A stretch of DNA of 17,783 nucleotides from a virus (taxonomy: Duplodnaviria; Heunggongvirae; Uroviricota; Caudoviricetes). The first letter of the stretch is position 1. The number at the start of each line of letters is the position of its first letter. This document shows positions 2,784 through 17,783 of this stretch, piece by piece. Position numbers and translations under genes: made by a program. Under the pieces are notes generated by a model. That model was given only the letters and a program-made list of their open reading frames with translations, was not told where the DNA came from and searched no databases. The stretch lies in the IMG/VR virus record IMGVR_UViG_2671180427_000010; one strand, given 5' to 3'.

Positions 2784-3035
2784 TATCGCGTCCTCAACAA
2801 TGAATTTTGTGATGCGGTGCCTGGTGCCTCCAGGTGACGTTAACCAGTTAACAATTAACGCCGGATACAGAGAATCCACCCATAACACTGTTTTTGGTTT
2901 TAACTGTTCCGCGTGCGCTCAGCCGCATTCACCGCATCACAAAATTCACTTTAAAAACGGCGGCAGAGCAGTCACGGAGTAAAACTGATACCGCCAAACG
3001 TCACCAGAAAATTGATAACAGAGGGCGTTGCAGCG

Positions 3036-4889: not shown

Positions 4890-5424
4890 ACAGGTTTGTG
4901 AGGCTCTGGATGCCTGGGTATGCCGACCAGGAATGACACAGGAGCAGGCGACGATATTAATCACGGAAGCATTCTGGGCTCTGAAAGAACGCCCGAACAT
5001 CGATGTTCAACGCGTCACGTTTAATGATGGCGAGGTTGATCAACGGGCGCTGGGCGTTAACCGGGTGAAGATATTCGAACGCTGGAAAGCTATCGACACC
5101 AGGGATAAGCGGAAAAAATTCACGGCGCTGATTCCGGCAATTATGGAGGCTATCCGAATTAGTGATTTCAGGCTGTATCGTGAGATCAGTGATGGAAAAA
5201 GCATTACGTACATGATCGCCGGATTAAACAAAGAATATGGCGATGTGGTGGAGTCCGGGCTGCTTTTTGCGGATCCAGCTGTTGTGGAACGTGAGACTGA
5301 CGAGCTTATAGAAAAAGCTATTGCTTTCAAGCATGCGTATCGTCAGCAATATCAATATTACTTTGCAGATAAACAAATGTCTGCCAGGGGTTCGTATGAG
5401 TATCGATGCACTACGATGGGCTAA
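4873..5424 (+). CDS. YdaT-like protein (183 aa), positional CII equivalent
   Basis: ATG 4873 overlaps stop of Cro-like gene (coupled). Position matches ydaT of Rac-type immunity regions. Family assignment from context and recollection only. Confidence 0.5.
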   Translation: MKITPEQVCEALDAWVCRPGMTQEQATILITEAFWALKERPNIDVQRVTFNDGEVDQRALGVNRVKIFERWKAIDTRDKRKKFTALIPAIMEAIRISDFRLYREISDGKSITYMIAGLNKEYGDVVESGLLFADPAVVERETDELIEKAIAFKHAYRQQYQYYFADKQMSARGSYEYRCTTMG

Positions 5425-6427
5425 AAAGGTGAAAACCGGCAGTTCATCCAGTAAGTCAGTATTGACCTGGCTTGCTGATATGTGCGGTGCCGATTTGTGT
5501 GCATACCCGTCTGTATCTGCCCTGGCAGAAGTAACGGAACTGAACAAAAAGACAGTGCAGGACAGCTTACGACACCTGATGGAGATTGGGTTAATTGTTG
5601 ATACCGGTGAGAGAAAAGGCAGAACAAAGCAAATTGTGGTGTACCGACTTATCGGTGTAGAAGAAAGTGTTGCCGAACCTGAATACACCCAAAAACGGGA
5701 GTCTTTAAAGGTGGGTAAAATTGGTGCTGTTAATAAAAACAGTACCGAAAATGGTTATGTTTCAGCACAAAACAGACCCAAAAACGGAACTCTTAGCTGC
5801 ATGGAAAATAACCAAAGACACCCAAATTTTCCATCAAAGACACCCAAAAACGGATCACGGAACCCAAAGGAACCCAAAGTTCTAAACCCCACACATAACG
5901 CACGCGAGAGTGCTCTGACCAGTGAGCAGGAAGTTTTGTCGTTACAGGCAGTATTCCTGGATGGCCTGAGAGAACCCATCGGAAAATTTCTGATGACCGA
6001 TAGCTGGCATCCGTCGCGGGATTTTCGACGACGGGCTGCGTTGTGGGGGATGGCTTTGCCGGAGCCGGAATTTACACCTGCTGAACTTGCCGCATTCCGG
6101 GATTACTGGAGTGATGAGGGGAAAGTGTTTACGCAGATTCAGTGGGAGCAGAAATTCGCCCGTCACGTAAATCACGTCAGGGCGCAGGTTAAACCAGTCA
6201 GCAAGGGGGTGAACCATGCAGCAGCACCAGGGGGCACCGCATCACGGGCAGTTCAGGAAATTCGGGCAGCACGTGAGCAGTGGGAACGTGAAAACGGATT
6301 TATCCGCGACGGAAACGGCGTGGAAGCTGTGGGAACTCATGGGGGAGGTTTATTCGAACCGCTGGACCCAGAAGAACGGGGCCGCACCTTCGAAGCTCTG
6401 GATTGCACAGATTGGTGCGATGACTGA
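5396..6427 (+). CDS. phage replication initiator, lambda O-like (winged-helix N-terminus, repeat-rich linker), 343 aa
   Basis: ATG 5396 with AGGGG 5 nt upstream, 29-nt overlap with upstream gene. N-terminal wHTH (LTWLADMCGADLCAYPSVSALAEVTELNKKTVQDSLRHLMEIGLI). Low-complexity linker encoded by iteron-like DNA repeats. Upstream of P-like gene. Confidence 0.6.
   Translation: MSIDALRWAKKVKTGSSSSKSVLTWLADMCGADLCAYPSVSALAEVTELNKKTVQDSLRHLMEIGLIVDTGERKGRTKQIVVYRLIGVEESVAEPEYTQKRESLKVGKIGAVNKNSTENGYVSAQNRPKNGTLSCMENNQRHPNFPSKTPKNGSRNPKEPKVLNPTHNARESALTSEQEVLSLQAVFLDGLREPIGKFLMTDSWHPSRDFRRRAALWGMALPEPEFTPAELAAFRDYWSDEGKVFTQIQWEQKFARHVNHVRAQVKPVSKGVNHAAAPGGTASRAVQEIRAAREQWERENGFIRDGNGVEAVGTHGGGLFEPLDPEERGRTFEALDCTDWCDD
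5772..5880. repeat. iteron-like direct repeats (ACCCAAA-containing) inside O-like gene; candidate replication origin
   Basis: AGACCCAAAAACGGA at 5773, AGACACCCAAA at 5816 and 5839, tandem GAACCCAAAG x2 at 5860-5879. AT-rich stretch immediately to the left (about 5720-5770). Confidence 0.45.
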
Positions 6428-6913: not shown

Positions 6914-7188
6914 ATGGAGACTGTTTTTGACGCACTGAAAGCAATGGGAAAAGCCACATCCATAGAACTTGCTGCGCGCGTGAAGAAGTGCTGAACGAAC
7001 TATGGGAACTGAAAAAGGCTGGTTTTGTTGATAAAAGCGCGTACACCTGGCGTGTGGCTGATAACAACGTTCAGCAGGAACAGCCAGCGCAGGCAGAACT
7101 GCCGGAAGAAACCACCACAATGAGTGAAGTTATGCAGCGCATACTGGCATTTTATCAGGGAAATGTTCGATATTTTAGACGTTACTAG
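6914..7188 (+). pseudogene. small winged-helix protein gene apparently split by a 1-nt frameshift near 6988
   Basis: ATG 6914 with GGGAGGAAA upstream encodes [26 protein letters not shown] then stop at 6992. Continuation in another frame from 6988 ([23 protein letters not shown]) resembles the intact small gene at 16375. Confidence 0.35.
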
Positions 7189-7554
7189 ATTAAAGAGCAT
7201 TAGTTCAGATGTGAATTGACATTGTGTGGCACAGGGTTGGGCTAGCGTGGGGGTTTGCTTTGTGTAAGAAACGGATGCTCTGCAAATTACTACTAATGCT
7301 TAATGTTAGTCTGATCTGCTCCCCGATGATTAATACACCGCTATGTTAGTAATGTCTGTAGATCGCTGTGTGTTGCATCCATCGGTTGACCCCACAGTCC
7401 AAACCAGACTGTCAGCTTTGATTCGATTCTATCTACTCAACCTGTCAGGTAATGTCTGAGCTAATACACAGAGTACGGCTATCGCGAACTTTAAGCTAGG
7501 TATCTGATACGCACCGTTCACTTGTTTGTACTTCTTGCACTGACTAGCTATCGT

Positions 7555-7590
7555 GCGCAGTTATTTATAGGTAATCTCCAGTGTATAATT
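7555..7590 (+). promoter_or_regulatory. candidate promoter for the 281-aa gene (TATAAT -10 at 7584-7589)
   Basis: Consensus TATAAT at 7584-7589 with TG immediately upstream, about 40 nt before ATG 7628. The -35 is weak (TTATTT at 7561-7566). Confidence 0.35.
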
Positions 7591-7627
7591 TTCCAACTTA
7601 TGGGAGATTGTAAAACAGGAGGAATAT

Positions 7628-8473
7628 ATGAGGAAAAAATCGTTTGGACGTTGCCCGTTTGATTTCGACGAAGATGTAAAAAAAATAGCCGCGATAAATA
7701 AATATATCCATGCGAAATTTGAGAGGCATAAAAATAAAATAGATAACCTAAAGGGGGTGGAACAAAAATTGATGGTTTTACATTACTTTAATGTACTGAA
7801 TGAACTTAGTAATCAGGCTATATTTTCTTTGAGTACCGGAGCCTTTTCAGCATCGGAAGTATTAACTAGAGTTATAATGGAACAGGCTGCCAATCAATTT
7901 TATATAGCAATTGATGATGGAAAAAATGCACAAGCATTACTCAAGGGTAGTAAGAAATTAGTTCATAGTAATGGGAAACGGTGGCTGGAGTGTTTAAAAT
8001 CCAAAGAAATGACTAATCCAGCAGCAGATGAAAGGATTCGTATCGGAAAAGAGCTAACTGATATGTTTAATAGATTGTGGCCAAATACACCTGAATATCC
8101 TGGAACCAAAAAGCTTTTCGAAGTAATTGGCTGGGAAACACACTATCATGCCTATTACGTCCCTCTTTGTGATTCAATACATACATTCTCTGATGATATG
8201 GCAAATATAGTATCTCTATATAATGCAATCCAAAGCGATAAAACTACTGCTATCGAACTCACTCTTGCAGTTAAACAAGAAAATAAACGGCTGGCAATTT
8301 ATAATGTCGTAATTGCTATTGGCCTGCGGTGTGAGGCCTTAGTAAATGTATTTAACTCTTTAGGTTATCGAGATATTATAACTGAAATGGCGCCAACAAT
8401 AGATGCAGTCAACCAGATTATAATTCGATATGATGATTTCGAACATTCCAGAATTTTTATTGTCAATAATTAA
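7628..8473 (+). CDS. hypothetical protein (281 aa), AT-rich, no recognised domain; candidate accessory or defence gene
   Basis: ATG 7628 preceded by AGGAGG (7616-7621). ORF track 281 aa. No Walker, RT or nuclease motifs seen by eye; a C-terminal R-x5-H (RYDDFEH) is too weak to interpret. Confidence 0.75.
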   Translation: MRKKSFGRCPFDFDEDVKKIAAINKYIHAKFERHKNKIDNLKGVEQKLMVLHYFNVLNELSNQAIFSLSTGAFSASEVLTRVIMEQAANQFYIAIDDGKNAQALLKGSKKLVHSNGKRWLECLKSKEMTNPAADERIRIGKELTDMFNRLWPNTPEYPGTKKLFEVIGWETHYHAYYVPLCDSIHTFSDDMANIVSLYNAIQSDKTTAIELTLAVKQENKRLAIYNVVIAIGLRCEALVNVFNSLGYRDIITEMAPTIDAVNQIIIRYDDFEHSRIFIVNN

Positions 8474-8526
8474 TTGGCAGAATTCGTACATGCACAACAA
8501 CTAGTTATAGTTGACCTATTTCGCTC

Positions 8527-9095
8527 TTGAGAGACAACCATACTCAAATCTTCCACATTGCAGGAGATTTGAGTATGAATACGTCACCGAGGAACAAAGA
8601 CAGTATCATAGGCCCAAAAAGACCACTTCAGATATCTCATATCTGGGGGCTCCAAATCCGGCTTGAACTGGAAGGTAAAACGCGTGATTTAGCTCGGTTT
8701 CAAGCAGAGCTACGGTGCTGCAACTGAAAAACTGGCAGTCCTATCCAATTTGAGATAACCAAAGGGACAAGAGAAGCTGTTTCTGCATTGATAAAGCTTG
8801 GCAATTTACGCAGTAAAGACTACTTGTTCCGATCTCGGGTCGGTACTAACCAACACATATCAATCCTGCAATATAACCGAATCTTTCATAGGGGGGAGAA
8901 AAGCTTGGTCTCGAAGATTCGCTTTACAGCACACATTCCATGAGAAGAACAAAACCTTGCCTTGTCTGCAAGAAAACTAAGAATCTCCGGGTGATCCAAC
9001 TTCCGTTGGGCCATAAGAAAACGGAAAGCACAGTTCGTTATCTGGGTATAGAAGTTGATGATGCATTAGAGATCTCTGAATCGATCGAAGTCTAA
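8527..9095 (+). pseudogene. tyrosine recombinase (phage integrase) C-terminal fragment with in-frame stop and frameshifts
   Basis: Frame 1 reads GLQIRLELEGKTRDL, in-frame TGA at 8725-8727, then KTGSPIQFEITKGTREAV...DYLFRSRVG. A second frame has RRFALQHTFHEKNKT. A third frame (8940-9095) ends RVIQLPLGHKKTESTVRYLGIEV, matching the conserved integrase C-terminal LGH...T..Y motif. Confidence 0.55.
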
Positions 9096-9101
9096 AGCTG
9101 T

Positions 9102-9123
9102 CAGGGCTGCAGCAGCAGCCCTG
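9102..9123. other. perfect 9-bp stem hairpin (CAGGGCTGC-AGCA-GCAGCCCTG) just after the integrase fragment
   Basis: Exact inverted repeat with 4-nt loop; no U-tract on either strand, so not a typical intrinsic terminator. Confidence 0.4.
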
Positions 9124-9507
9124 TGCCAAGAGCGTACCAATATATGTCTCAAAAAATTGGGCACAGGTCAATATCAATACCAACAACTCTGATTGTGCTC
9201 ATGTGATTTACTCCTGTAGAAAACGCAGACAGTAAAAATATTTCACTGGCTGCTTCAGACAGGGCGTCCATCATATCATTACATAACAATAGCGGGGCAC
9301 GATATCTAGACATGCAGCAACGATGGACATAGAATGAGTACAATCAAAAGCATGTTTAACTACTTTAATTTAAAAATCTTAGAATCTTAGGTGTAGAGTT
9401 CAATACTTAGTTACATACCCTTTTGAAAGCATCACAAATCATAACTATGAGCCTGTTAAAGGCATAGGTATTCTTAATTAAGAGCATTTTAATGAGAGAA
9501 AAATAAA

Positions 9508-10881
9508 ATGAAAAGACTATATTATACCCATCATGATAGTCGAACCTTAAAACTTGCTATAGAAGGTGATGTTTCTGATAATGCGAATATTTTTACAGTA
9601 ATTGTAGGTAAAAATGGCGTTGGAAAAAGCAGATTGTTATCTCAGATTGCTAAAGACTGTATTCAAGATGTTCATTTCTTGAAAACTTTTAATCCATTAT
9701 TTGACAGAGAAATAACACCAAAGTTAATTGCCGTATCTACCAGCCCATTCGATAAATTCCCTCCAGGGCGTAGGTCATTAAATCACCAAAGGAAAGAAAA
9801 TAATTATCGCTATGTGGGTATGCGTGGAGAAGGCCCCTTCGGCGTATCAAATGCCGTATCCCTTTTATCTTCAGCAGCGAGAGGTTGGCTAGAGAAACTT
9901 GCTTATTCAGAAAATCCTGCAAATTTACTCGATGTTTTTCATTCTATTGATTTTGAGCCCCATATAGAGTTTGTATTTAAACCAACTTACAACGGACCGG
10001 ACACTCCTGACTATAACTTCATTGGTGTATATTCAGATGAGATATTAACGGAAGTTAAGGAGTTATATTTAAAATACAATATAAAAATTGACAGGAAGAA
10101 TATTGAGAGTCTCTTAAAGTTAAACTCCGAATCACGTCATGATATTTACGAAGCACTGGTTGAAATTAATCGATTTGAACCTGAACGTAGGGCTGTAACC
10201 TTGTCAGTCGATTTTACCAATGGTGAAACATTGGTTGGCTCGACTTATGCGAATAATTATTTTTCTAGATCAATTCTTAAACTTATGAACGCTGGCTTCA
10301 TGAGATTGATGGATATGCGACTCATAAAAAAAAGCTATGGTCCCATGTCACTTAAACGTGCGAGCTCGGGAGAACAATGTTTATTAGTGATGTTGCTTGG
10401 AATTGCAGGGCATATAACTGATGGTTCTATAATATTAATTGATGAACCGGAAATAAGCTTGCATCCTCGATGGCAGGAAGAGTTTATCATTATGTTAACA
10501 AAAGCATTTTTAACTTACTCAGGTTGTCAATTCATAATTGCAACTCATTCACCACAAATAATATCCAATTTGCCGAATAAAGGTTGTTATATAACATCTT
10601 TGTCGAAAAGTTATCTTTATAAAGCAAAATACTTTAGCAACCGGTCTGCAGACTATCAACTTGCGGAACTATTTGATGCCCCTGGCATTATGAATGAATA
10701 CATTGCCAGGTTAGCTTTCAATTTACTTTCAAAAGTTAAGACTGCTAAGTTAGTAACAGATGATAATTGGCGTGAATTAAAACAACTCCAACTTCTCCTT
10801 GAAAACGTTAATAGTAATGACCCTATTAATGAACTCGTAAATTCCGTATCTCAGGTGTGTGAAATTTATGCCAAAAATTAA
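9508..10881 (+). CDS. ptuA: ABC-type ATPase, Septu PtuA-like (457 aa)
   Basis: Walker A VGKNGVGKS, signature-like SSGEQ, Walker B IILIDEPE, H-loop IATHSP. AT-rich. Followed by an overlapping HNH nuclease gene, the Septu two-gene architecture. Confidence 0.7.
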   Translation: MKRLYYTHHDSRTLKLAIEGDVSDNANIFTVIVGKNGVGKSRLLSQIAKDCIQDVHFLKTFNPLFDREITPKLIAVSTSPFDKFPPGRRSLNHQRKENNYRYVGMRGEGPFGVSNAVSLLSSAARGWLEKLAYSENPANLLDVFHSIDFEPHIEFVFKPTYNGPDTPDYNFIGVYSDEILTEVKELYLKYNIKIDRKNIESLLKLNSESRHDIYEALVEINRFEPERRAVTLSVDFTNGETLVGSTYANNYFSRSILKLMNAGFMRLMDMRLIKKSYGPMSLKRASSGEQCLLVMLLGIAGHITDGSIILIDEPEISLHPRWQEEFIIMLTKAFLTYSGCQFIIATHSPQIISNLPNKGCYITSLSKSYLYKAKYFSNRSADYQLAELFDAPGIMNEYIARLAFNLLSKVKTAKLVTDDNWRELKQLQLLLENVNSNDPINELVNSVSQVCEIYAKN

Positions 10882-11503
10882 AAATCCAATTAGATTCAGC
10901 GCAGAGTCATTAGATATTATTGAGAAAAAATTGTCTTCTCCAGATTTTAAGCATACCAACTGGGGAGATGATGATTTGCAAGTTCTCCGTGCAGAAATTA
11001 GAAATCATTACAGAGAAGAACAAAAGCTAGAATGTGTATATTGTCATGAGCCTATTGGGGTAAGAGCTGCACAAGCTGCTCCTATAGAGCATATTGTGCC
11101 AAAATCTCAATATCTATGTTTTATTTTTGAACCTAAGAATCTATGTGTAGTATGTCCTGACTGCAATGAATTCAAAGGTAAAAATGAAGTGTTATTTGAA
11201 CCCGTAATAAATGGGGGGCGGCGCAAAAACTATCCAACTGCATCTGCATCATTTCGCATCGTTCATCCACATATAGATGATTATGAGATGCATATTATAA
11301 AAGCAAATCGTGTTTATGTGGACAAAACACCTAAAGGGCACTATACCATTGGAATATGTAAACTAAATAGATTTTTTCATTATTTTGGGATGTGTGATGA
11401 ATTTGTTAATGATGCAAAAATTGCTGAGGCAAATGAAAATTTTTTCAAAAAAGGTAGTATTACTACTAATGAATTATTGGATGATGACATTCATTTGATT
11501 TAA
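10868..11503 (+). CDS. ptuB: HNH endonuclease, Septu PtuB-like (211 aa)
   Basis: HNH motifs CVYCHEPIG, IEHIVPKS, CVVCPDCNEFKG. ATG 10868 overlaps ATPase gene end by 14 nt (ORF-track start 10859 is GTG). Confidence 0.7.
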   Translation: MPKIKNPIRFSAESLDIIEKKLSSPDFKHTNWGDDDLQVLRAEIRNHYREEQKLECVYCHEPIGVRAAQAAPIEHIVPKSQYLCFIFEPKNLCVVCPDCNEFKGKNEVLFEPVINGGRRKNYPTASASFRIVHPHIDDYEMHIIKANRVYVDKTPKGHYTIGICKLNRFFHYFGMCDEFVNDAKIAEANENFFKKGSITTNELLDDDIHLI

Positions 11504-11816
11504 CTATGAATTATTATATTGTAAAGTAATCAGGTAAGATATGTTAGACAGTGAGACTATTGCCTTACAGAATTCATTATTCTTATGGATCGCCTTTCTG
11601 ACTGATTTCATATTGGCGGGGTAACGGGAGTTAAGTAGAATGGCTGCGGGTGCTTGAGGCTATCTGTCTCAGGCATGAACACCAAAGGCAGATAGAGAAA
11701 AGCCCCAGTTAACATTACGCGTCCTGCAAGACGCTTAACATTAATCTGAGGCCAATTTCATGCTAGACACATGTAGGTTAGCCTCTTACGTGCCGGAAGG
11801 CAAGGAGAAGCAGGCT

Positions 11817-11972
11817 ATGAAGCAGCAAAAGGCGATGTTAATCGCCCTGATCGTCATCTGTTTAACCGTCATAGTGACGACACTGGTAACGAGGAAAGAC
11901 CTCTGCGAGGTACGAATCCGAACCGGCCAGACGGAGGTCGCTGTCTTCACAGCTTACGAACCTGAGGAGTAA
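11817..11972 (+). CDS. hokD: Hok/Gef-family type I toxin, HokD (RelF)-like, 51 aa
   Basis: Protein MKQQKAMLIALIVICLTVIVTTLVTRKDLCEVRIRTGQTEVAVFTAYEPEE matches the Hok family (TM helix, conserved C and Y). AAGGAG 8 nt upstream of ATG 11817. ORF-track start at 11760 is an in-frame extension. Confidence 0.8.
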   Translation: MKQQKAMLIALIVICLTVIVTTLVTRKDLCEVRIRTGQTEVAVFTAYEPEE

Positions 11973-14601: not shown

Positions 14602-14631
14602 TGACCATATACATTGTCCGGGGCTATATTC
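14602..14631 (+). promoter_or_regulatory. PR'-like late promoter (TTGACC, 18-bp spacer, TATATT)
   Basis: -35 TTGACC 14602-14607 and -10 TATATT 14626-14631, immediately downstream of the Q gene. Confidence 0.5.
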
Positions 14632-14692
14632 CTCGCGCGTCAGCAAAATCTGGCGTCGGGATTGGAACCCCGGATATTCAACCGCGACAGAC

Positions 14693-14717
14693 ACACGCCG
14701 CGAGCGTGTTTTTTATT
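14693..14717 (+). terminator. tR'-like intrinsic terminator (Q-antiterminated)
   Basis: Stem ACACGC/GCGTGT with CGCGA loop followed by TTTTTTATT, about 75 nt downstream of the PR'-like -10. Confidence 0.55.
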
Positions 14718-14878
14718 GTCGTAAGCACACGCACATCTGAATAATGGTGGGGCGTATGGGGGAGCTGAAAGGCTCGCCGGTTGGTTGATCCGGTAGTTCC
14801 AACCCTGTACGTCTCACCACCCAATGATTGGAACCTGACGGTGGTGATAGTTAAATCCATCAACCAGAGGGCGTTATC

Positions 14879-15439
14879 ATGACGACTCAAGTTTCTGTCG
14901 AAACTCTTTCCCCGATCACACACAACCAGCTCCCAGTTGTCACTACAGAGTTACTGGCCAAACTATATGGCTGTAGCGTCGAGTGTATTCATAGAAATCA
15001 CCACCGTAATAAAGAGCGATTTGCAGAAGGGAAGCACTACATAATTGCGAAAGGCGCAGACCTCCAAAATTTGAAAATCTCTTTAAGGGATTTTCAAACG
15101 ATCGCCCCAAATGTCCGAAAGCTCATACTCTGGACAGAACGCGGAGCAGCCCGTCACGCCAAAATGCTCGAAACCGATCAGGCGTGGGAAGTATTCGAAA
15201 AACTGGAAGACTGTTATTTCAACCAAAAACAACCACCAGCGGCACAAAACACATCTATCGAAAATGATGGATGCGCATTACTGATCCACTTCGATAAACA
15301 TGGTCAGGTTGAGTTCACGGAAAAGGTGCCCGCCGATGCGATGGTATGCACTCTGGAACGGTTTAAATTTTATCTGGAGCAACACGGGTGGATCGTTGCC
15401 CGTAAAGAGCAACTGGTGGAGCGGTTGATGCGGCTTTAA
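14879..15439 (+). CDS. ORF6N-domain protein (antirepressor-like), 186 aa
   Basis: AGAGGG upstream of ATG 14879. N-terminal region (LPVVTTELLAKLYGCSVECIHRNHHRNKERFAEGKHYII...RKLILWTERGAARHAKM) resembles the ORF6N/Rha-type domain by recollection. Confidence 0.55.
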   Translation: MTTQVSVETLSPITHNQLPVVTTELLAKLYGCSVECIHRNHHRNKERFAEGKHYIIAKGADLQNLKISLRDFQTIAPNVRKLILWTERGAARHAKMLETDQAWEVFEKLEDCYFNQKQPPAAQNTSIENDGCALLIHFDKHGQVEFTEKVPADAMVCTLERFKFYLEQHGWIVARKEQLVERLMRL

Positions 15440-15541: not shown

Positions 15542-16262
15542 TGCACAGAAAACCCCCAGCTAGGCTGGGGGTTCCGGAAAGCTTTCAGCTTTGAGCCAGT
15601 TATTAAAACCCCTTTTGATTTGTTAAAACACCTTGCGGTCTGGCAACTGCAAGTGTCAAACAAGAAATCAAAAGGGGGTCCCAATGGGGAACGAAAAGAG
15701 CTTAGCGCACACCCGATGGAACTGTAAATATCACATAGTATTTGCGCCAAAATACCGAAGACAGGTGTTCTACAGAGAGAAGCGTAGAGCAATAGGCTGT
15801 ATTTTGAGAAAGCTGTGTGAGTGGAAAAGTGTACGGATTCTGGAAGCTGAATGCTGTGCAGATCATATCCATATGCTTGTGGAGATCCCGCCCAAAATGA
15901 GCGTATCCGGCTTTATGGGATATCTGAAAGGGAAAAGCAGTCTGATGCTTTACGAGCAGTTTGGTGATTTGAAATTCAAGTACAGGAACAGGGAGTTCTG
16001 GTGCAGAGGGTATTACGTCGATACGGTGGGTAAGAACACGGCGAAGATACAGGATTACATAAAGCACCAGCTTGAAGAGGATAAAATGGGAGAGCAGTTA
16101 TCGATTCCCTATCCGGGCAGCCCGTTTACGGGCCGTAAGTAACGAAGTTGGATGCAAATGTCAGATCGTGTGCGCCTGTTAGGGCGCGGCTGGTAAGAGA
16201 GCCTTATAGGCGCATTTGAAAAACCTCCGGCTATGCCGGAGGATATTTATTGTGCCCGAAAA
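15532..16262 (+). mobile_element. IS200/IS605-family insertion sequence (IS200-like); boundaries approximate
   Basis: Contains Y1 transposase gene. Subterminal hairpins with 8-bp stem and 3-nt loop on both sides: CCCCCAGC-TAG-GCTGGGGG (15552-15570) and CCTCCGGC-TAT-GCCGGAGG (16234-16252). Ends estimated, not determined. Confidence 0.5.
15684..16142 (+). CDS. tnpA: IS200-type Y1 transposase TnpA (152 aa)
   Basis: MGNEKSLAHTRWNCKYHIVFAPKYRR...HIHMLVEIPPKMSVSGFMGYLKGKSS...NREFWCRGYYVDTVG has the HUH motif (HIHML) and catalytic Y region of IS200 TnpA. AAGGGGG upstream of ATG 15684. Confidence 0.85.
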   Translation: MGNEKSLAHTRWNCKYHIVFAPKYRRQVFYREKRRAIGCILRKLCEWKSVRILEAECCADHIHMLVEIPPKMSVSGFMGYLKGKSSLMLYEQFGDLKFKYRNREFWCRGYYVDTVGKNTAKIQDYIKHQLEEDKMGEQLSIPYPGSPFTGRK

Positions 16263-17448: not shown

Positions 17449-17524
17449 GGCCTTTTAGCTCAGTGGTGAGAGCGAGCGACTCATAATCGCCAGGTCGCTG
17501 GTTCAAATCCAGCAAGGGCCACCA
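17449..17524 (+). tRNA. tRNA-Ile2-like, anticodon CAU (lysidine type; could be Met by anticodon alone)
   Basis: Hand-folded cloverleaf: acceptor GGCCTTT/AAGGGCC, D-arm GCTC-AGTGGTGA-GAGC, anticodon loop CTCATAA, T-arm GCTGG-TTCAAAT-CCAGC, discriminator A, CCA. Resembles recalled E. coli ileX. Confidence 0.75.
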
Positions 17525-17531
17525 TCACATA

Positions 17532-17608
17532 CCGCCATTAGCTCATCAGGAAAGAGCGCCAGCTTTCGAAGCTGGTTGCGCGGAGTTCGGGTCCCCGAAG
17601 GCGGTCCA
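17532..17608 (+). tRNA. tRNA-Arg-like, anticodon UCG, with non-canonical T-arm (possibly degenerate)
   Basis: Acceptor CCGCCAT/AAGGCGG (one mismatch), D-arm GCTC/GAGC, perfect anticodon stem CCAGC/GCTGG with loop TTTCGAA, T-arm CGGAG-TTCGGGT-CCCCG (one mismatch, G at position 58), CCA. Confidence 0.5.
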
Positions 17609-17621
17609 TTATCTGTATCCT

Positions 17622-17679
17622 GCGTTGTTAGCTCAGCCGGACAGAGCAATTGCCTTCTAAGCAATCGGTCACTGGTTCG
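17622..17679 (+). pseudogene. 3'-truncated tRNA-Arg (anticodon UCU) fragment
   Basis: Acceptor 5' GCGTTGT, D-arm GCTC-AGCCGGACA-GAGC, anticodon stem ATTGC/GCAAT with loop CTTCTAA, T-stem 5' ACTGG and TTCG, then no matching T-stem or acceptor 3' strand (ACAACGC absent downstream). Confidence 0.5.
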
Positions 17680-17783
17680 GTAAGCGACTCGTCAGAACCG
17701 TATTGATATTTACTGAGAGCTCAGATCAACTTTCCAGGGCAACAGATCGCGTACCCGGTTTGCCGGCCAGTCCTGGATATGTT

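What the first reader, a model, noticed from the sequence alone, without database searches (positions are those of the whole stretch)
7190..11600. AT-rich accessory islet between the replication module and hokD, where Qin-type prophages carry relBE
From about 7190 to 11600 the base composition turns visibly AT-rich and stop-codon-rich compared with the flanking replication genes and the hokD-rem block. The islet holds an orphan 281-aa gene with its own promoter, a decayed integrase fragment and a Septu-like ATPase/HNH pair. In Qin-type prophages hokD is preceded by relB-relE and an integrase remnant (intK), so a toxin-antitoxin module appears to have been swapped for anti-phage cargo at a conserved hotspot. 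The integrase fragment suggests the cargo arrived on a small integrative element that has since decayed.
Basis: partly seen in the sequence, partly recalled or inferred. Interest (0 to 1): 0.65.

Follow-up and report, generated by a model that had tools for sequence, protein, structure and literature searches.

The report
Septu defence islet in prophage hotspot
A 4.3-kb AT-rich insert in an E. coli lambda-like prophage carries an intact Septu anti-phage gene pair, a gene of unknown function and a dead mini-recombinase. It sits at a slot where related phages carry other defence or accessory genes, which is ordinary in kind, but the dead recombinase and nearby worn-out palindromes hint at how such cargo is exchanged.

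Summary
Window 7265-11575 has 36.6% GC against 48% in the flanks. It contains a DUF5677 gene (7628-8473), a tyrosine-recombinase pseudogene (8575-9095) and an intact type I Septu pair: PtuA 9508-10881 (PADLOC E=1e-165) and PtuB 10868-11503 (E=1e-83). The identical islet occurs in only 19 of 5426 complete E. coli genomes, including EPEC E2348/69.

The slot between lygF and hokD is a real variable hotspot. Related phages carry PD-T7-1, QueH plus a methyltransferase, the Paa adhesin, or relBE there. Septu is the only component with a supported function. By family inference it is an ATPase-controlled HNH nuclease that aborts phage infection.

Qin's relBE is a derived insertion that truncates mokD, whereas the window keeps mokD/hokD/sok intact. 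The "integrase fragment" is not a remnant of a phage-type integrase. It is a dead copy of a 200-aa stand-alone recombinase found in about 15% of E. coli genomes.

That recombinase module, and the borders of cargo cassettes at this slot and at the P2 Z/fun hotspot, carry two lox-like palindromes (B|cargo|A). These match repeats annotated in 2004 P2 GenBank records. In the window the sites are degenerate.

The parts
6914..7098 (+). 5' fragment of a ydaW/DUF1627 gene. This is prophage backbone and is a pseudogene.
   Evidence: RefSeq marks it 'frameshifted; incomplete'. PPompW-type backbone homology ends at 7098, inside the 244-aa DUF1627 gene of that phage.
7120..7264 (+). 3' end of lygF plus its downstream region. 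This is the last backbone sequence before the cargo.
   Evidence: 84% identical to mEp460_ev081 L002 3001-3154 and 81% to WCHEC035148 L014 2704-2866.
7254..7278 (+). Degenerate copy of the 'B' palindrome (GTCCGCTY-TGTGCCAR-RAGCGGAC) that marks the left edge of the lygF-hok hotspot.
   Evidence: It lies at the position orthologous to the intact sites at L014 2835-2858 and L002 3143-3166. Within this 25-bp feature, the aligned 24-mer (GTTTGCTTTGTGTAAGAAACGGAT) matches the consensus at 16 of 24 positions, and the two arms are no longer complementary.
7311..8520 (+). DUF5677 cassette, with the gene at 7628-8473 (281 aa, function unknown).
   Evidence: 89.7% identical to cargo in the P2-like prophage of E. 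coli S88, where it starts immediately after that phage's B site (L004 7001). Pfam and PHROG hits, no PADLOC hit.
8504..8530 (+). Degenerate 'A'-type site (spacer TTCGCTCT) at the 5' boundary of the recombinase module.
   Evidence: It aligns with the A'-type boundary CCTCGCTCATAAGGGAC, where eight different genomic contexts converge. The corresponding site in L014 is at 5992.
8539..8577 (+). Inverted repeat (15-9-15) overlapping the recombinase start codon.
   Evidence: Arms of 13 nt are perfectly complementary in the window. The repeat is invariant across all eight recombinase modules aligned.
8575..9095 (+). Pseudogene of a 200-aa stand-alone tyrosine recombinase.
   Evidence: An 82-bp deletion removes the box-I arginine region, and there are also a +1 and a -1 indel relative to intact copies. 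Intact S88 copy: Pfam Phage_integrase E=4e-17. The R-K-HxxR-H-Y residues can be read in the CFT073 copy.
9100..9137 (+). 3' end of the recombinase module: a hairpin (CAGGGCTGC/GCAGCCCTG) followed by a B-type half-site TGTGCCAAGAGCGTAC, in which GCGGAC has mutated to GCGTAC.
9138..9507 (+). AT-rich leader upstream of ptuA, the presumed promoter region of the Septu operon.
   Evidence: Promoter-like hexamers at 9307-9335 (10 of 12 matches) and 9356-9385, but not more than chance gives. No Rfam family matches here, and in particular no retron ncRNA.
9508..10881 (+). ptuA, the Septu ABC-type ATPase (457 aa).
   Evidence: PADLOC PDLC00283 at 1e-165 over residues 2-455. Pfam AAA_21 and AAA_15. Walker A G34-S41 (K40), signature SSGE 286, Walker B IILIDEP 308-314, THSP 346.
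10868..11503 (+). ptuB, the Septu HNH nuclease (211 aa). It overlaps ptuA by 14 nt.
   Evidence: PADLOC PDLC00325 at 1e-83. Pfam HNH. PHROG 36683 full length. CxxC at 56 and 93, E74-H75, N100.
11504..11575 (+). 3' tail of the islet, with the right junction at 11575/11576.
   Evidence: Backbone homology to mEp460_ev081, HannyBb and WCHEC035148 starts at 11576. The junction lies inside a small backbone ORF. The A site and about 225 bp that those phages have upstream of this point are missing.
11648..11972 (+). Intact hokD/mokD/sok type I toxin-antitoxin module. This is flanking backbone, not cargo.
   Evidence: Rfam sok RF01794 at 117 bits, 11648-11822. Pfam HOK_GEF E=1e-23 for the 70-aa ORF 11760-11972. 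RefSeq places hokD at 11817-11972.

Best explanation
Window 7265-11575 is a mosaic cargo islet in the lygF-hokD variable slot of a Rac/Qin-type lambdoid prophage of E. coli. It has three parts.

1. A DUF5677 gene cassette. The same cassette also circulates in the Z/fun hotspot of P2-like prophages.
2. A dead copy of a 200-aa tyrosine recombinase module.
3. A stand-alone type I Septu operon (ptuA-ptuB).

Septu is the only part with a supported function. By inference from characterised Septu systems, PtuA forms an ATP-bound oligomer that holds the PtuB HNH nuclease inactive. Phage infection, sensed as a phage protein and/or falling ATP, releases the nuclease. Depending on the homologue studied, the nuclease then nicks DNA or cleaves tRNA-Tyr, stopping phage production at the cost of the infected cell. 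The prophage thereby protects its lysogen from other phages.

Shown here: gene identities, intact motifs, junctions, the rarity and single origin of the islet, and the alternative cargos at the slot. Inferred: that Septu is expressed and active, its trigger and its target. DUF5677 is a candidate defence or accessory gene by location only.

The islet was probably assembled by the cassette system described under the novel case and then fixed by decay. The recombinase and all of its sites are mutated, and the right end is an illegitimate deletion junction.
For: - Septu identity and intact catalytic motifs. ptuA and ptuB overlap by 14 nt, consistent with an operon.
- No reverse transcriptase ORF and no retron RNA, so this is stand-alone Septu rather than a retron I-A system.
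- ptuA and ptuB are intact in 18 of the 19 genomes, and in 8 IMG/VR contigs at 99.8% identity or more.
- Mechanism from the literature. Stand-alone PtuAB forms a hexameric assembly whose DNA nicking falls as ATP rises, and it is sensitised by phage tail fibre (PMC12819146). Septu EcB88 needs the Walker A/B and HNH residues, cleaves the tRNA-Tyr variable loop on T6 infection, and behaves as abortive infection (PMC13096335).
- Hotspot evidence. Junctions are shared with phages carrying PD-T7-1 (PADLOC 4e-157), QueH, Paa or relBE.
- Mosaic origin.
- Compositional discontinuity.
Against: - No experiment shows that this Septu variant defends against phage. Its PtuA matches solved PtuA structures only around the signature/Walker B region (E=3e-7 to 1e-9), and its PtuB has no sequence match in the PDB. 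Trigger and target may therefore differ from the studied systems.
- No promoter is demonstrated.
- At 99.8% identity among copies, an intact ORF says little about selection. One strain already has a split ptuA.
- DUF5677 has no PADLOC hit. A DUF5677 gene from Bacillota gave no protection in the one published test.
Confidence: 0.8

Rival explanations
1. A small integrative element carrying its own integrase inserted here, replaced a relBE module and then decayed. The integrase fragment is its remnant.
For: A recombinase pseudogene does lie in the middle of the islet. Qin-type prophages carry relBE before hokD.
Against: No flanking direct repeats. The recombinase family is a complete 200-aa protein, not a fragment of a phage-type integrase. 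It is unrelated to anything in the Qin stretch fetched, including the ydfW region where intK is placed from memory. The relBE junction (11803) differs from the islet junction (11576) and truncates mokD, so relBE is a derived state. The DUF5677-recombinase and Septu halves have different distributions.
Confidence: 0.1
2. The islet is inert, decaying passenger DNA. Septu is silenced (for example by H-NS acting on AT-rich DNA) or non-functional, and the islet persists only because the prophage is young.
For: The recombinase, both palindromic sites and the backbone genes ydaW and lygF are already degraded. One strain has a split ptuA. IS elements have inserted in or next to the islet in several strains. 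All copies are 99.4% identical or more, so purifying selection cannot be measured.
Against: The two Septu ORFs (2 kb in total) are intact with every catalytic motif, while the neighbouring 0.6-kb recombinase gene has accumulated three disabling lesions. The homologous slot in other phages holds experimentally validated defence genes such as PD-T7-1.
Confidence: 0.15
3. The A and B palindromes are transcription terminators or insulators conserved as part of phage backbones and cassettes, not recombination sites. Cargo is exchanged by ordinary homologous or illegitimate recombination, and the small recombinase is just another passenger gene.
For: Each site is a GC-rich 8-bp stem with an 8-nt loop, placed directly after the last gene of an operon (P2 gene G, lambdoid lygF). 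Only about 6 of 120 site-bearing viral contigs also carry the recombinase. The window's right junction and the L012 deletion are clearly illegitimate events.
Against: No T-run follows the stems. The same 24-mer lies at the exact point where conserved sequence gives way to variable sequence, in unrelated backbones (P2-like, lambdoid, chromosomal islands, a plasmid). The polarity is strict: 57 of 102 B sites have an A site downstream in the same orientation, against 1 upstream and 1 inverted. The recombinase module itself ends in A-type and B-type sites in 8 of 8 contexts. The architecture of 8-12-bp inverted arms around an asymmetric 8-bp spacer is that of tyrosine-recombinase core sites (established knowledge: loxP, FRT, dif).
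Confidence: 0.35

Closest known systems
Septu type I (PtuA/PtuB), stand-alone
   Same: Two overlapping genes on one strand. An ABC/AAA_15/21-type ATPase with Walker A, signature and Walker B motifs. An HNH nuclease with two CxxC pairs and an H-N catalytic core. Full-length hits to PADLOC PtuA1 and PtuB1 models. Carried on a mobile element.
   Different: A divergent clade. PDB PtuA chains (8EE4, the retron Ec78/Eco7 PtuA) match only about 60-100 residues, and PtuB has no PDB sequence match. NCBIfam PtuA and PtuB (retron Ec78 equivalogs) score far below cutoff. The nearest relatives in species-representative genomes are in Pseudomonas, at 66% identity or less. This variant is untested.
Retron type I-A (Retron-Eco7/Ec78) with PtuAB effectors
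   Same: Homologous effector pair.
   Different: No reverse transcriptase ORF and no msr/msd RNA in or near the islet. The PtuA is 457 aa, against about 550 aa for the retron-type PtuA chains in the PDB.
Phage-encoded defence hotspots (P2 tin/old and Z/fun loci, P4 hotspots; Rousset 2022, Vassallo 2022, PMC13586616)
   Same: A fixed slot between conserved phage genes. It holds AT-rich, rapidly swapped cargo, much of it defence systems. The DUF5677 cassette is literally shared with the P2 Z/fun hotspot.
   Different: This slot lies in Rac/Qin-type lambdoid prophages, between lygF (after the replication genes) and the hok/sok-rem block. It also holds non-defence cargo (Paa, QueH, relBE).
P2 Z-region inserts flanked by 'left/right inverted repeats' (GenBank AJ512676-AJ512683; Nilsson, Karlsson & Haggard-Ljungquist 2004, Mol Biol Evol 21:1)
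   Same: An 85-bp query made of the S88 G-downstream flank plus its B site (L004 6917-7001) falls under the annotated 'left inverted repeat' of these records. An A-type site starts at the first base of the 'right inverted repeat' in AJ512680. The paper's title proposes site-specific recombination.
   Different: The paper is not held in the library, so I could not check what it says about a recombinase, about lambdoid phages or about arrays. In the window the sites are degenerate.
Integron cassettes, Acinetobacter pdif modules, and engineered recombinase-mediated cassette exchange with heterospecific lox sites
   Same: Gene cassettes bounded by short recombinase-type sites, arrays of such cassettes, and a tyrosine recombinase nearby. 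Two sites share arms but differ in spacer, as in heterospecific lox pairs.
   Different: The recombinase is 200 aa with no IntI-specific insert. NCBIfam integron-integrase, Xer and invertase models score 18-47 bits against cutoffs of 220-435. The sites are 24-bp double-stranded-type palindromes, not attC hairpins or 11-6-11 dif sites. No recombination has been demonstrated.

Membership tests
Septu type I | PtuA: ABC-type/AAA_15-AAA_21 ATPase with Walker A, signature and Walker B motifs | tested here: met
   PADLOC PDLC00283 at 1e-165 over residues 2-455 of 457. Pfam AAA_21 at 2e-20 and AAA_15 at 1e-16. GKNGVGKS 34-41, SSGE 286, IILIDEP 308-314, THSP 346.
Septu type I | PtuB: HNH nuclease encoded immediately downstream on the same strand | tested here: met
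   PADLOC PDLC00325 at 1e-83. Pfam HNH at 5e-5, above the gathering score. 14-nt overlap with ptuA. CVYC 56, E74-H75, CVVCPDCN 93-100.
Septu type I | Stand-alone: no associated reverse transcriptase or msr-msd RNA | tested here: met
   No other ORF of 60 aa or more in 9096-11575 beyond noise. No Rfam family at gathering score inside 7265-11575.
Septu type I | Confers phage resistance that depends on the ATPase and HNH residues | not testable with these tools
   Shown only for homologues (PMC13096335; PMC12819146).
   Intact homologues are complete genes of about 200 aa, whose conserved module of about 700 bp ends sharply on both sides. The top 120 homologues are 170-256 aa, nearly all 194-203 aa.
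   No direct repeat pairs the two junctions. The right junction is a deletion into a backbone ORF.
IR-flanked cassettes of phage hotspots (B|cargo|A; P2 Z-region type) | B-type palindrome at the left cargo boundary, directly after the last backbone gene | tested here: inconclusive
   The orthologous position 7254-7278 is present, but only 16 of 24 positions match and the arms no longer pair. The DUF5677 cassette starts 32 bp further on.
IR-flanked cassettes of phage hotspots (B|cargo|A; P2 Z-region type) | A-type palindrome at the right cargo boundary | tested here: not met
   There is no A-type site within 5 mismatches anywhere in the window. Related phages have one about 225-265 bp before the point equivalent to 11576. 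The only trace is a degenerate A-like sequence at 8504-8530, at the end of the DUF5677 cassette.
Active tyrosine recombinase | Intact ORF with the R-K-H-R-H/W-Y catalytic residues | tested here: not met
   The window copy has an 82-bp deletion that removes the box-I arginine region, plus two frameshifts. Intact copies elsewhere retain all six residues (read from the sequence).
FimB/FimE-type DNA invertases, Xer recombinases, integron integrases (for the 200-aa recombinase family) | Score at or above the curated family cutoff | tested here: not met
   NCBIfam scores: tyrosine-type DNA invertase 20.6 bits (cutoff 222), XerC 42.5 (335), XerA 46.5 (220), IntI 17.9 (265). No PDB sequence match at E<=1e-3.

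The most novel reading that the evidence does not exclude
The dead recombinase and the worn palindromes in the window are fossils of a natural cassette-exchange system. It consists of a 200-aa tyrosine recombinase, 76-96% identical across Escherichia, Proteus, Providencia, Pantoea, Idiomarina and Pseudoalteromonas. It acts on two lox-like 24-bp sites that share arms but differ in spacer: B (GTCCGCTY-TGTGCCAR-RAGCGGAC) and A (GTCCRCTC-CTCGCTCW-MAGCGGAC).

Cargo is always arranged B|cargo|A. Adjacent cassettes are joined A~22 nt~B, and the recombinase gene itself sits inside such a junction. The B site defines the exact left border of two unrelated phage defence hotspots: after gene G in P2-like phages and after lygF in lambdoid phages. 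It also occurs in chromosomal islands and on a plasmid.

If the recombinase performs B x B and A x A exchanges, this would be the mobilisation mechanism for defence and other accessory genes that a 2026 study of P2/P4 hotspots describes as still needing to be elucidated. The P2 part (inverted repeats flanking Z-region inserts, with site-specific recombination proposed) dates from 2004. The dedicated recombinase, the two-site polarity, the arrays and the lambdoid hotspot may be new.
Probability: 0.35. Interest if true: 0.8.

Novelty: new member of a known kind. Interest (0 to 1): 0.5.

Why it matters
Taken at face value the islet is one more example of a prophage carrying a known defence system (Septu) in a variable slot. 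That is useful for annotating EPEC E2348/69 and 18 other strains, and it identifies the lygF-hokD interval of Rac/Qin-type prophages as a place to look for new defence genes. DUF5677 and the unnamed 314-aa and 326-aa proteins in WCHEC035148 are candidates.

The wider value is the lead it gives on mechanism. The same pair of palindromic sites bounds cargo in two unrelated phage hotspots, in islands and on a plasmid. A small, highly conserved recombinase carries those sites at its own ends. If that recombinase moves the cassettes, it would explain how defence genes that encode no mobility functions of their own are swapped between phages. It would also give a sequence signature (B...A) for harvesting cassettes systematically.

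Tried and rejected
- DUF5677 as an obligate partner of the recombinase: rejected. Another P2-like prophage keeps DUF5677 after a simple deletion (GTAAA microhomology) removed the recombinase. A 53%-identical relative sits next to an unrelated gene.
- Small recombinase as a defence-specific marker: rejected. In marine Gammaproteobacteria it lies between arsenic and copper resistance modules.
- intK homology: none found in the Qin stretch fetched.
- Direct or inverted repeats bounding the whole islet: none convincing.
- The CAGACTGTCAG motif noticed early occurs once in the window. It turned out to be part of extended arms of the sites in some contexts.
- Promoter and terminator scans gave no more than chance.
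- Donor of the Septu segment: not identified. The best relatives are 66% identical, in Pseudomonas. Among phage records there is one 39% match, in a Vibrio phage. IMG/VR holds only the same islet plus three distant relatives.
- Literature searches for a described small tyrosine recombinase/cassette system in E. coli hotspots found nothing beyond the 2004 P2 paper, which is not held.

Full report

**Observation.** The compositional drop is real. Sliding-window GC is 0.33-0.43 from 7250 to 11750, against 0.46-0.58 on both sides. Between the homology breakpoints (7265-11575) GC is 36.6%, against 48% in the flanks. GC3 of the three intact islet genes is 0.21-0.28, against 0.47-0.67 for neighbouring phage genes. 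The only unverified detail is the 'own promoter' of the 281-aa gene: it has a perfect -10 and a good ribosome-binding site but no -35, and promoter-like sites in the region are no more frequent than in shuffles.

**Septu.**
- ORF 9508-10881 matches PADLOC PtuA model PDLC00283 end to end (E=1e-165). ORF 10868-11503 matches PtuB model PDLC00325 (E=1e-83).
- Pfam gives AAA_21/AAA_15 and HNH.
- The Walker A (K40), signature (SSGE), Walker B (D312-E313) and H-loop motifs of PtuA are intact. So are the two CxxC pairs, H75 and N100 of PtuB.
- The genes overlap by 14 nt.
- There is no reverse transcriptase ORF and no Rfam hit inside the islet, so this is stand-alone Septu and not a type I-A retron.
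- The variant is remote from solved PtuAB structures and from the NCBIfam retron-type equivalogs. Its nearest relatives in species-representative genomes are in Pseudomonas, at 66% or less.
- The mechanism is therefore inferred from the family. Stand-alone PtuAB forms a hexameric ATPase assembly holding the HNH subunit, and its DNA nicking falls as ATP rises (PMC12819146). An E. coli Septu (EcB88) requires the Walker and HNH residues, cleaves the tRNA-Tyr variable loop on T6 infection, and acts by abortive infection (PMC13096335).

**Distribution.** The full islet occurs in 19 of 5426 complete E. coli genomes at 98.5-100% identity (18 of them at 99.4% or more), including EPEC E2348/69, and in 8 IMG/VR contigs. 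In every copy inspected the recombinase is already a pseudogene, so the decay predates the spread. One strain has a split ptuA. Several strains have IS insertions in or beside the islet. The Septu DNA (9138-11575) is found in no other E. coli genome, even at blastn sensitivity.

**Junctions and the hotspot.**
- Left side: PPompW-type backbone homology stops at 7098, inside a truncated ydaW/DUF1627 gene. Positions 7120-7264 are the 3' end of lygF plus its downstream region.
- Right side: backbone resumes at 11576 in mEp460_ev081, HannyBb and WCHEC035148, and at 11613-11631 in others.
- Cargo carried by related phages between these points:
  - mEp460_ev081 has PD-T7-1 (PADLOC 4e-157).
  - WCHEC035148 has an unknown 314-aa gene, PD-T7-1, an intact small recombinase and an unknown 326-aa gene.
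  - HannyBb has a methyltransferase and QueH.
  - PPompW has Paa.
  - PhiR42_1 and K-12 Qin have flxA-ydfV-relBE.
- The slot is therefore a true variable hotspot. It holds defence genes and also other accessory genes.

**relBE.** Qin does carry relB-relE directly before hokD. However, window-Qin homology resumes only at 11803, inside the mok reading frame. A review citing Ramisetty and Santhosh 2016 reports that the relBE insertion shortened the ancestral ~70-codon ORF to 51 codons (PMC6379469). The window has the 70-codon ORF (11760-11972) and a full sok match (11648-11822, 117 bits). So relBE is a derived alternative occupant, not the state that this islet replaced.

**The 'integrase fragment'.**
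- Positions 7311-9059 are 86-90% identical to cargo lying between the tail-fibre-assembly gene and the tail-sheath gene of a P2-like prophage in E. coli S88, that is, at the Z/fun hotspot. Vassallo et al. describe that locus as a second P2 defence hotspot.
- In S88 the recombinase gene is an intact 194-aa ORF (Pfam Phage_integrase 4e-17).
- Searching E. coli genomes with 7311-9059 shows that the recombinase part alone (from 8521) is present at about 90% identity in 807 of 5426 genomes, as a complete 200-aa gene.
- Its contexts differ widely: a CFT073 island next to HEC-08; next to a dynamin-like Leo-type protein; next to an Mrr-like endonuclease; on a plasmid; and in the same lambdoid slot in WCHEC035148.
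- An alignment of eight contexts shows a module of about 700 bp with sharp ends and unrelated DNA on both sides.
- The CFT073 protein retains R51, K79, H147-x-x-R150, H173 and Y183 (sequence).
- The family is very large and conserved: 7998 clusters at E<=1e-10, with 76-96% identity across many gammaproteobacterial genera. It fits none of the curated Xer, invertase or integron models.
- In marine bacteria it separates arsenic and copper resistance modules, so it marks accessory cargo in general, not only defence.
- Nothing in the K-12 Qin stretch fetched, including the ydfW region, resembles it.
- In the window an 82-bp deletion removes the box-I arginine region, and two further indels break the frame.

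**Palindromic sites.**
- The 3' end of the recombinase module carries TGTGCCARRAGCGGAC. The same 16-mer recurs, always in the same orientation, between cargo genes in every recombinase context. It also occurs just after lygF in mEp460_ev081 and WCHEC035148, and at the exact left edge of the DUF5677 cassette in S88.
- The full site ('B') is a palindrome with an asymmetric spacer: GTCCGCTY-TGTGCCAR-RAGCGGAC, sometimes with 12-bp arms. A second site ('A') has the same arms and the spacer CTCGCTCW.
- Cargo lies between a B on the left and an A on the right. Adjacent cassettes are joined A~22 nt~B. The recombinase gene sits inside such a junction. In WCHEC035148 the order is lygF-B|314-aa gene|A~B|PD-T7-1|A'-recombinase-B'|326-aa gene|A, followed by 263 bp and then the hok backbone.
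At least 34 copies lie about 90 nt after lygF and at least 42 lie about 60 nt after P2 gene G.
- The lygF-type left flank (n=37) is essentially invariant up to the site and then splits into at least 8 unrelated right flanks. The P2-type left flank (n=33) splits into at least 16. One cargo start is found behind three different left contexts.
- Of 102 B sites with enough downstream sequence, 57 have an A site downstream in the same orientation (median distance 1.4 kb), against 1 upstream and 1 inverted.

**Precedent.** An 85-bp query made of the S88 flank downstream of gene G plus its B site falls under features annotated 'left inverted repeat' in GenBank records AJ512676-AJ512683 (P2-EC30 to P2-EC58 Z-regions). 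An A-type site starts at the first base of the 'right inverted repeat' in AJ512680. [quoted passage not shown] That paper is cited in the library but not held. The idea of site-specific insertion at the P2 Z region is therefore 20 years old. I could not establish whether the dedicated recombinase, the A/B polarity, the arrays or the lambdoid slot were described. [quoted passage not shown]

**How the window fits.**
- The orthologous B site after lygF (7254-7278) matches only 16 of 24 positions.
- The A-like boundary of the recombinase module (8504-8530) is degenerate.
- The B half-site after the pseudogene reads GCGTAC instead of GCGGAC (9122-9137).
- No A site follows Septu.
- The right junction (11576) falls inside a small hydrophobic ORF that related phages keep whole, about 225-265 bp after their A site. 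It is therefore an illegitimate deletion junction.

The islet reads as a fossilised cassette array: lygF'-B*|DUF5677|A*-pseudo-recombinase-B*|Septu|deletion-hok.

**DUF5677.** This is a small family (54 representatives at 50% clustering). It is all-helical in a low-confidence model, with no informative fold match. It occupies two different phage hotspots. According to a preprint, the domain is enriched next to serine recombinases in Bacillota, but it was not among the genes that protected in their assay. It remains a candidate only.

**Verdict.** The Septu and hotspot parts of the interpretation are supported. The relBE swap and the decayed integrative element are not. As stated, the finding is a new member of a known kind: a known defence system in a prophage hotspot. 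The most interesting result is the by-product, a recombinase-and-site architecture shared by two phage hotspots, which is partly anticipated by a 2004 paper and untested biochemically.

Noticed in passing
window 8521-9137; loci L004, L013-L018, L020-L027: A module of about 700 bp encodes a 200-aa tyrosine recombinase. It has sharp conserved ends, is present in about 15% of complete E. coli genomes, and is 76-96% identical across many gammaproteobacterial genera. It always sits between unrelated cargo genes: defence genes in E. coli, and arsenic/copper resistance genes in marine bacteria. It fits no curated recombinase family model.
   Followed up: yes
L002 3143 and 5084; L014 2835, 4009, 4051, 5992, 6676 and 8222; L013 4489, 7701, 8715 and 8757; L004 6978; more than 120 IMG/VR loci (L036-L155): Two lox-like 24-bp palindromes share arms but differ in spacer (B and A). 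They bound cargo cassettes with strict polarity (B|cargo|A). They mark the exact left border of the P2 G-FI (Z/fun) hotspot and of the lambdoid lygF-hok hotspot. They correspond to the 'left/right inverted repeat' features of GenBank AJ512676-AJ512683.
   Followed up: yes
L002 about 5245-5340; L014 about 8400-8490; truncated at window 11576: Related phages have a small ORF (about 29 aa, hydrophobic: VLVLKYALAIAAVMAIYCLAIVLMDRLSD) between their A site and the hok/sok module. The window keeps only its last few codons. It could be a small membrane peptide or toxin.
   Followed up: no
L014 2896-3840 (-) and 7017-7997 (+); L013 6884-7621 and 7739-8548; L017 3485-4915: Several cassette-borne proteins in the same slot or next to the recombinase have no Pfam or PADLOC match (314 aa, 326 aa, an ETEC_3214-family protein, 269 aa, 476 aa). 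By position they are candidates for new defence or accessory functions.
   Followed up: partly
window 14624-14824, and ORF 14879-15439: Rfam finds isrK, C4 antisense RNA and its a1/b1 target sites directly upstream of an ORF6N-domain (antirepressor-like) gene. This resembles a P1/P7-type C4-ant immunity module, or the Gifsy isrK-anrP arrangement, placed after the Q gene.
   Followed up: no
window 15551-16142: An IS200C copy (tnpA about 15684-16142) with its 5' structured RNA (Rfam STnc490, 146 bits) is inserted between the ORF6N gene and the late region.
   Followed up: no
window 2958-3009 (-): DicF sRNA (Rfam 72.5 bits) lies next to dicB, confirming the Qin/Rac-type immunity and cell-division region.
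   Followed up: no
window 17449-17698: A cluster of tRNA genes lies downstream of an HTH gene (tRNA-Ile, Arg, Arg in RefSeq; two found by Rfam), as in Stx-type lambdoid phages. Since some Septu systems act on tRNA-Tyr, it may be relevant that no tRNA-Tyr is among them.
   Followed up: no
[not shown]
   Followed up: partly
window 6914-7188: ydaW (DUF1627) and lygF are fused into a dead remnant: the 5' part of ydaW runs to 7098 and the 3' part of lygF starts at 7120. The backbone just upstream of the hotspot has therefore also suffered a deletion.
   Followed up: partly
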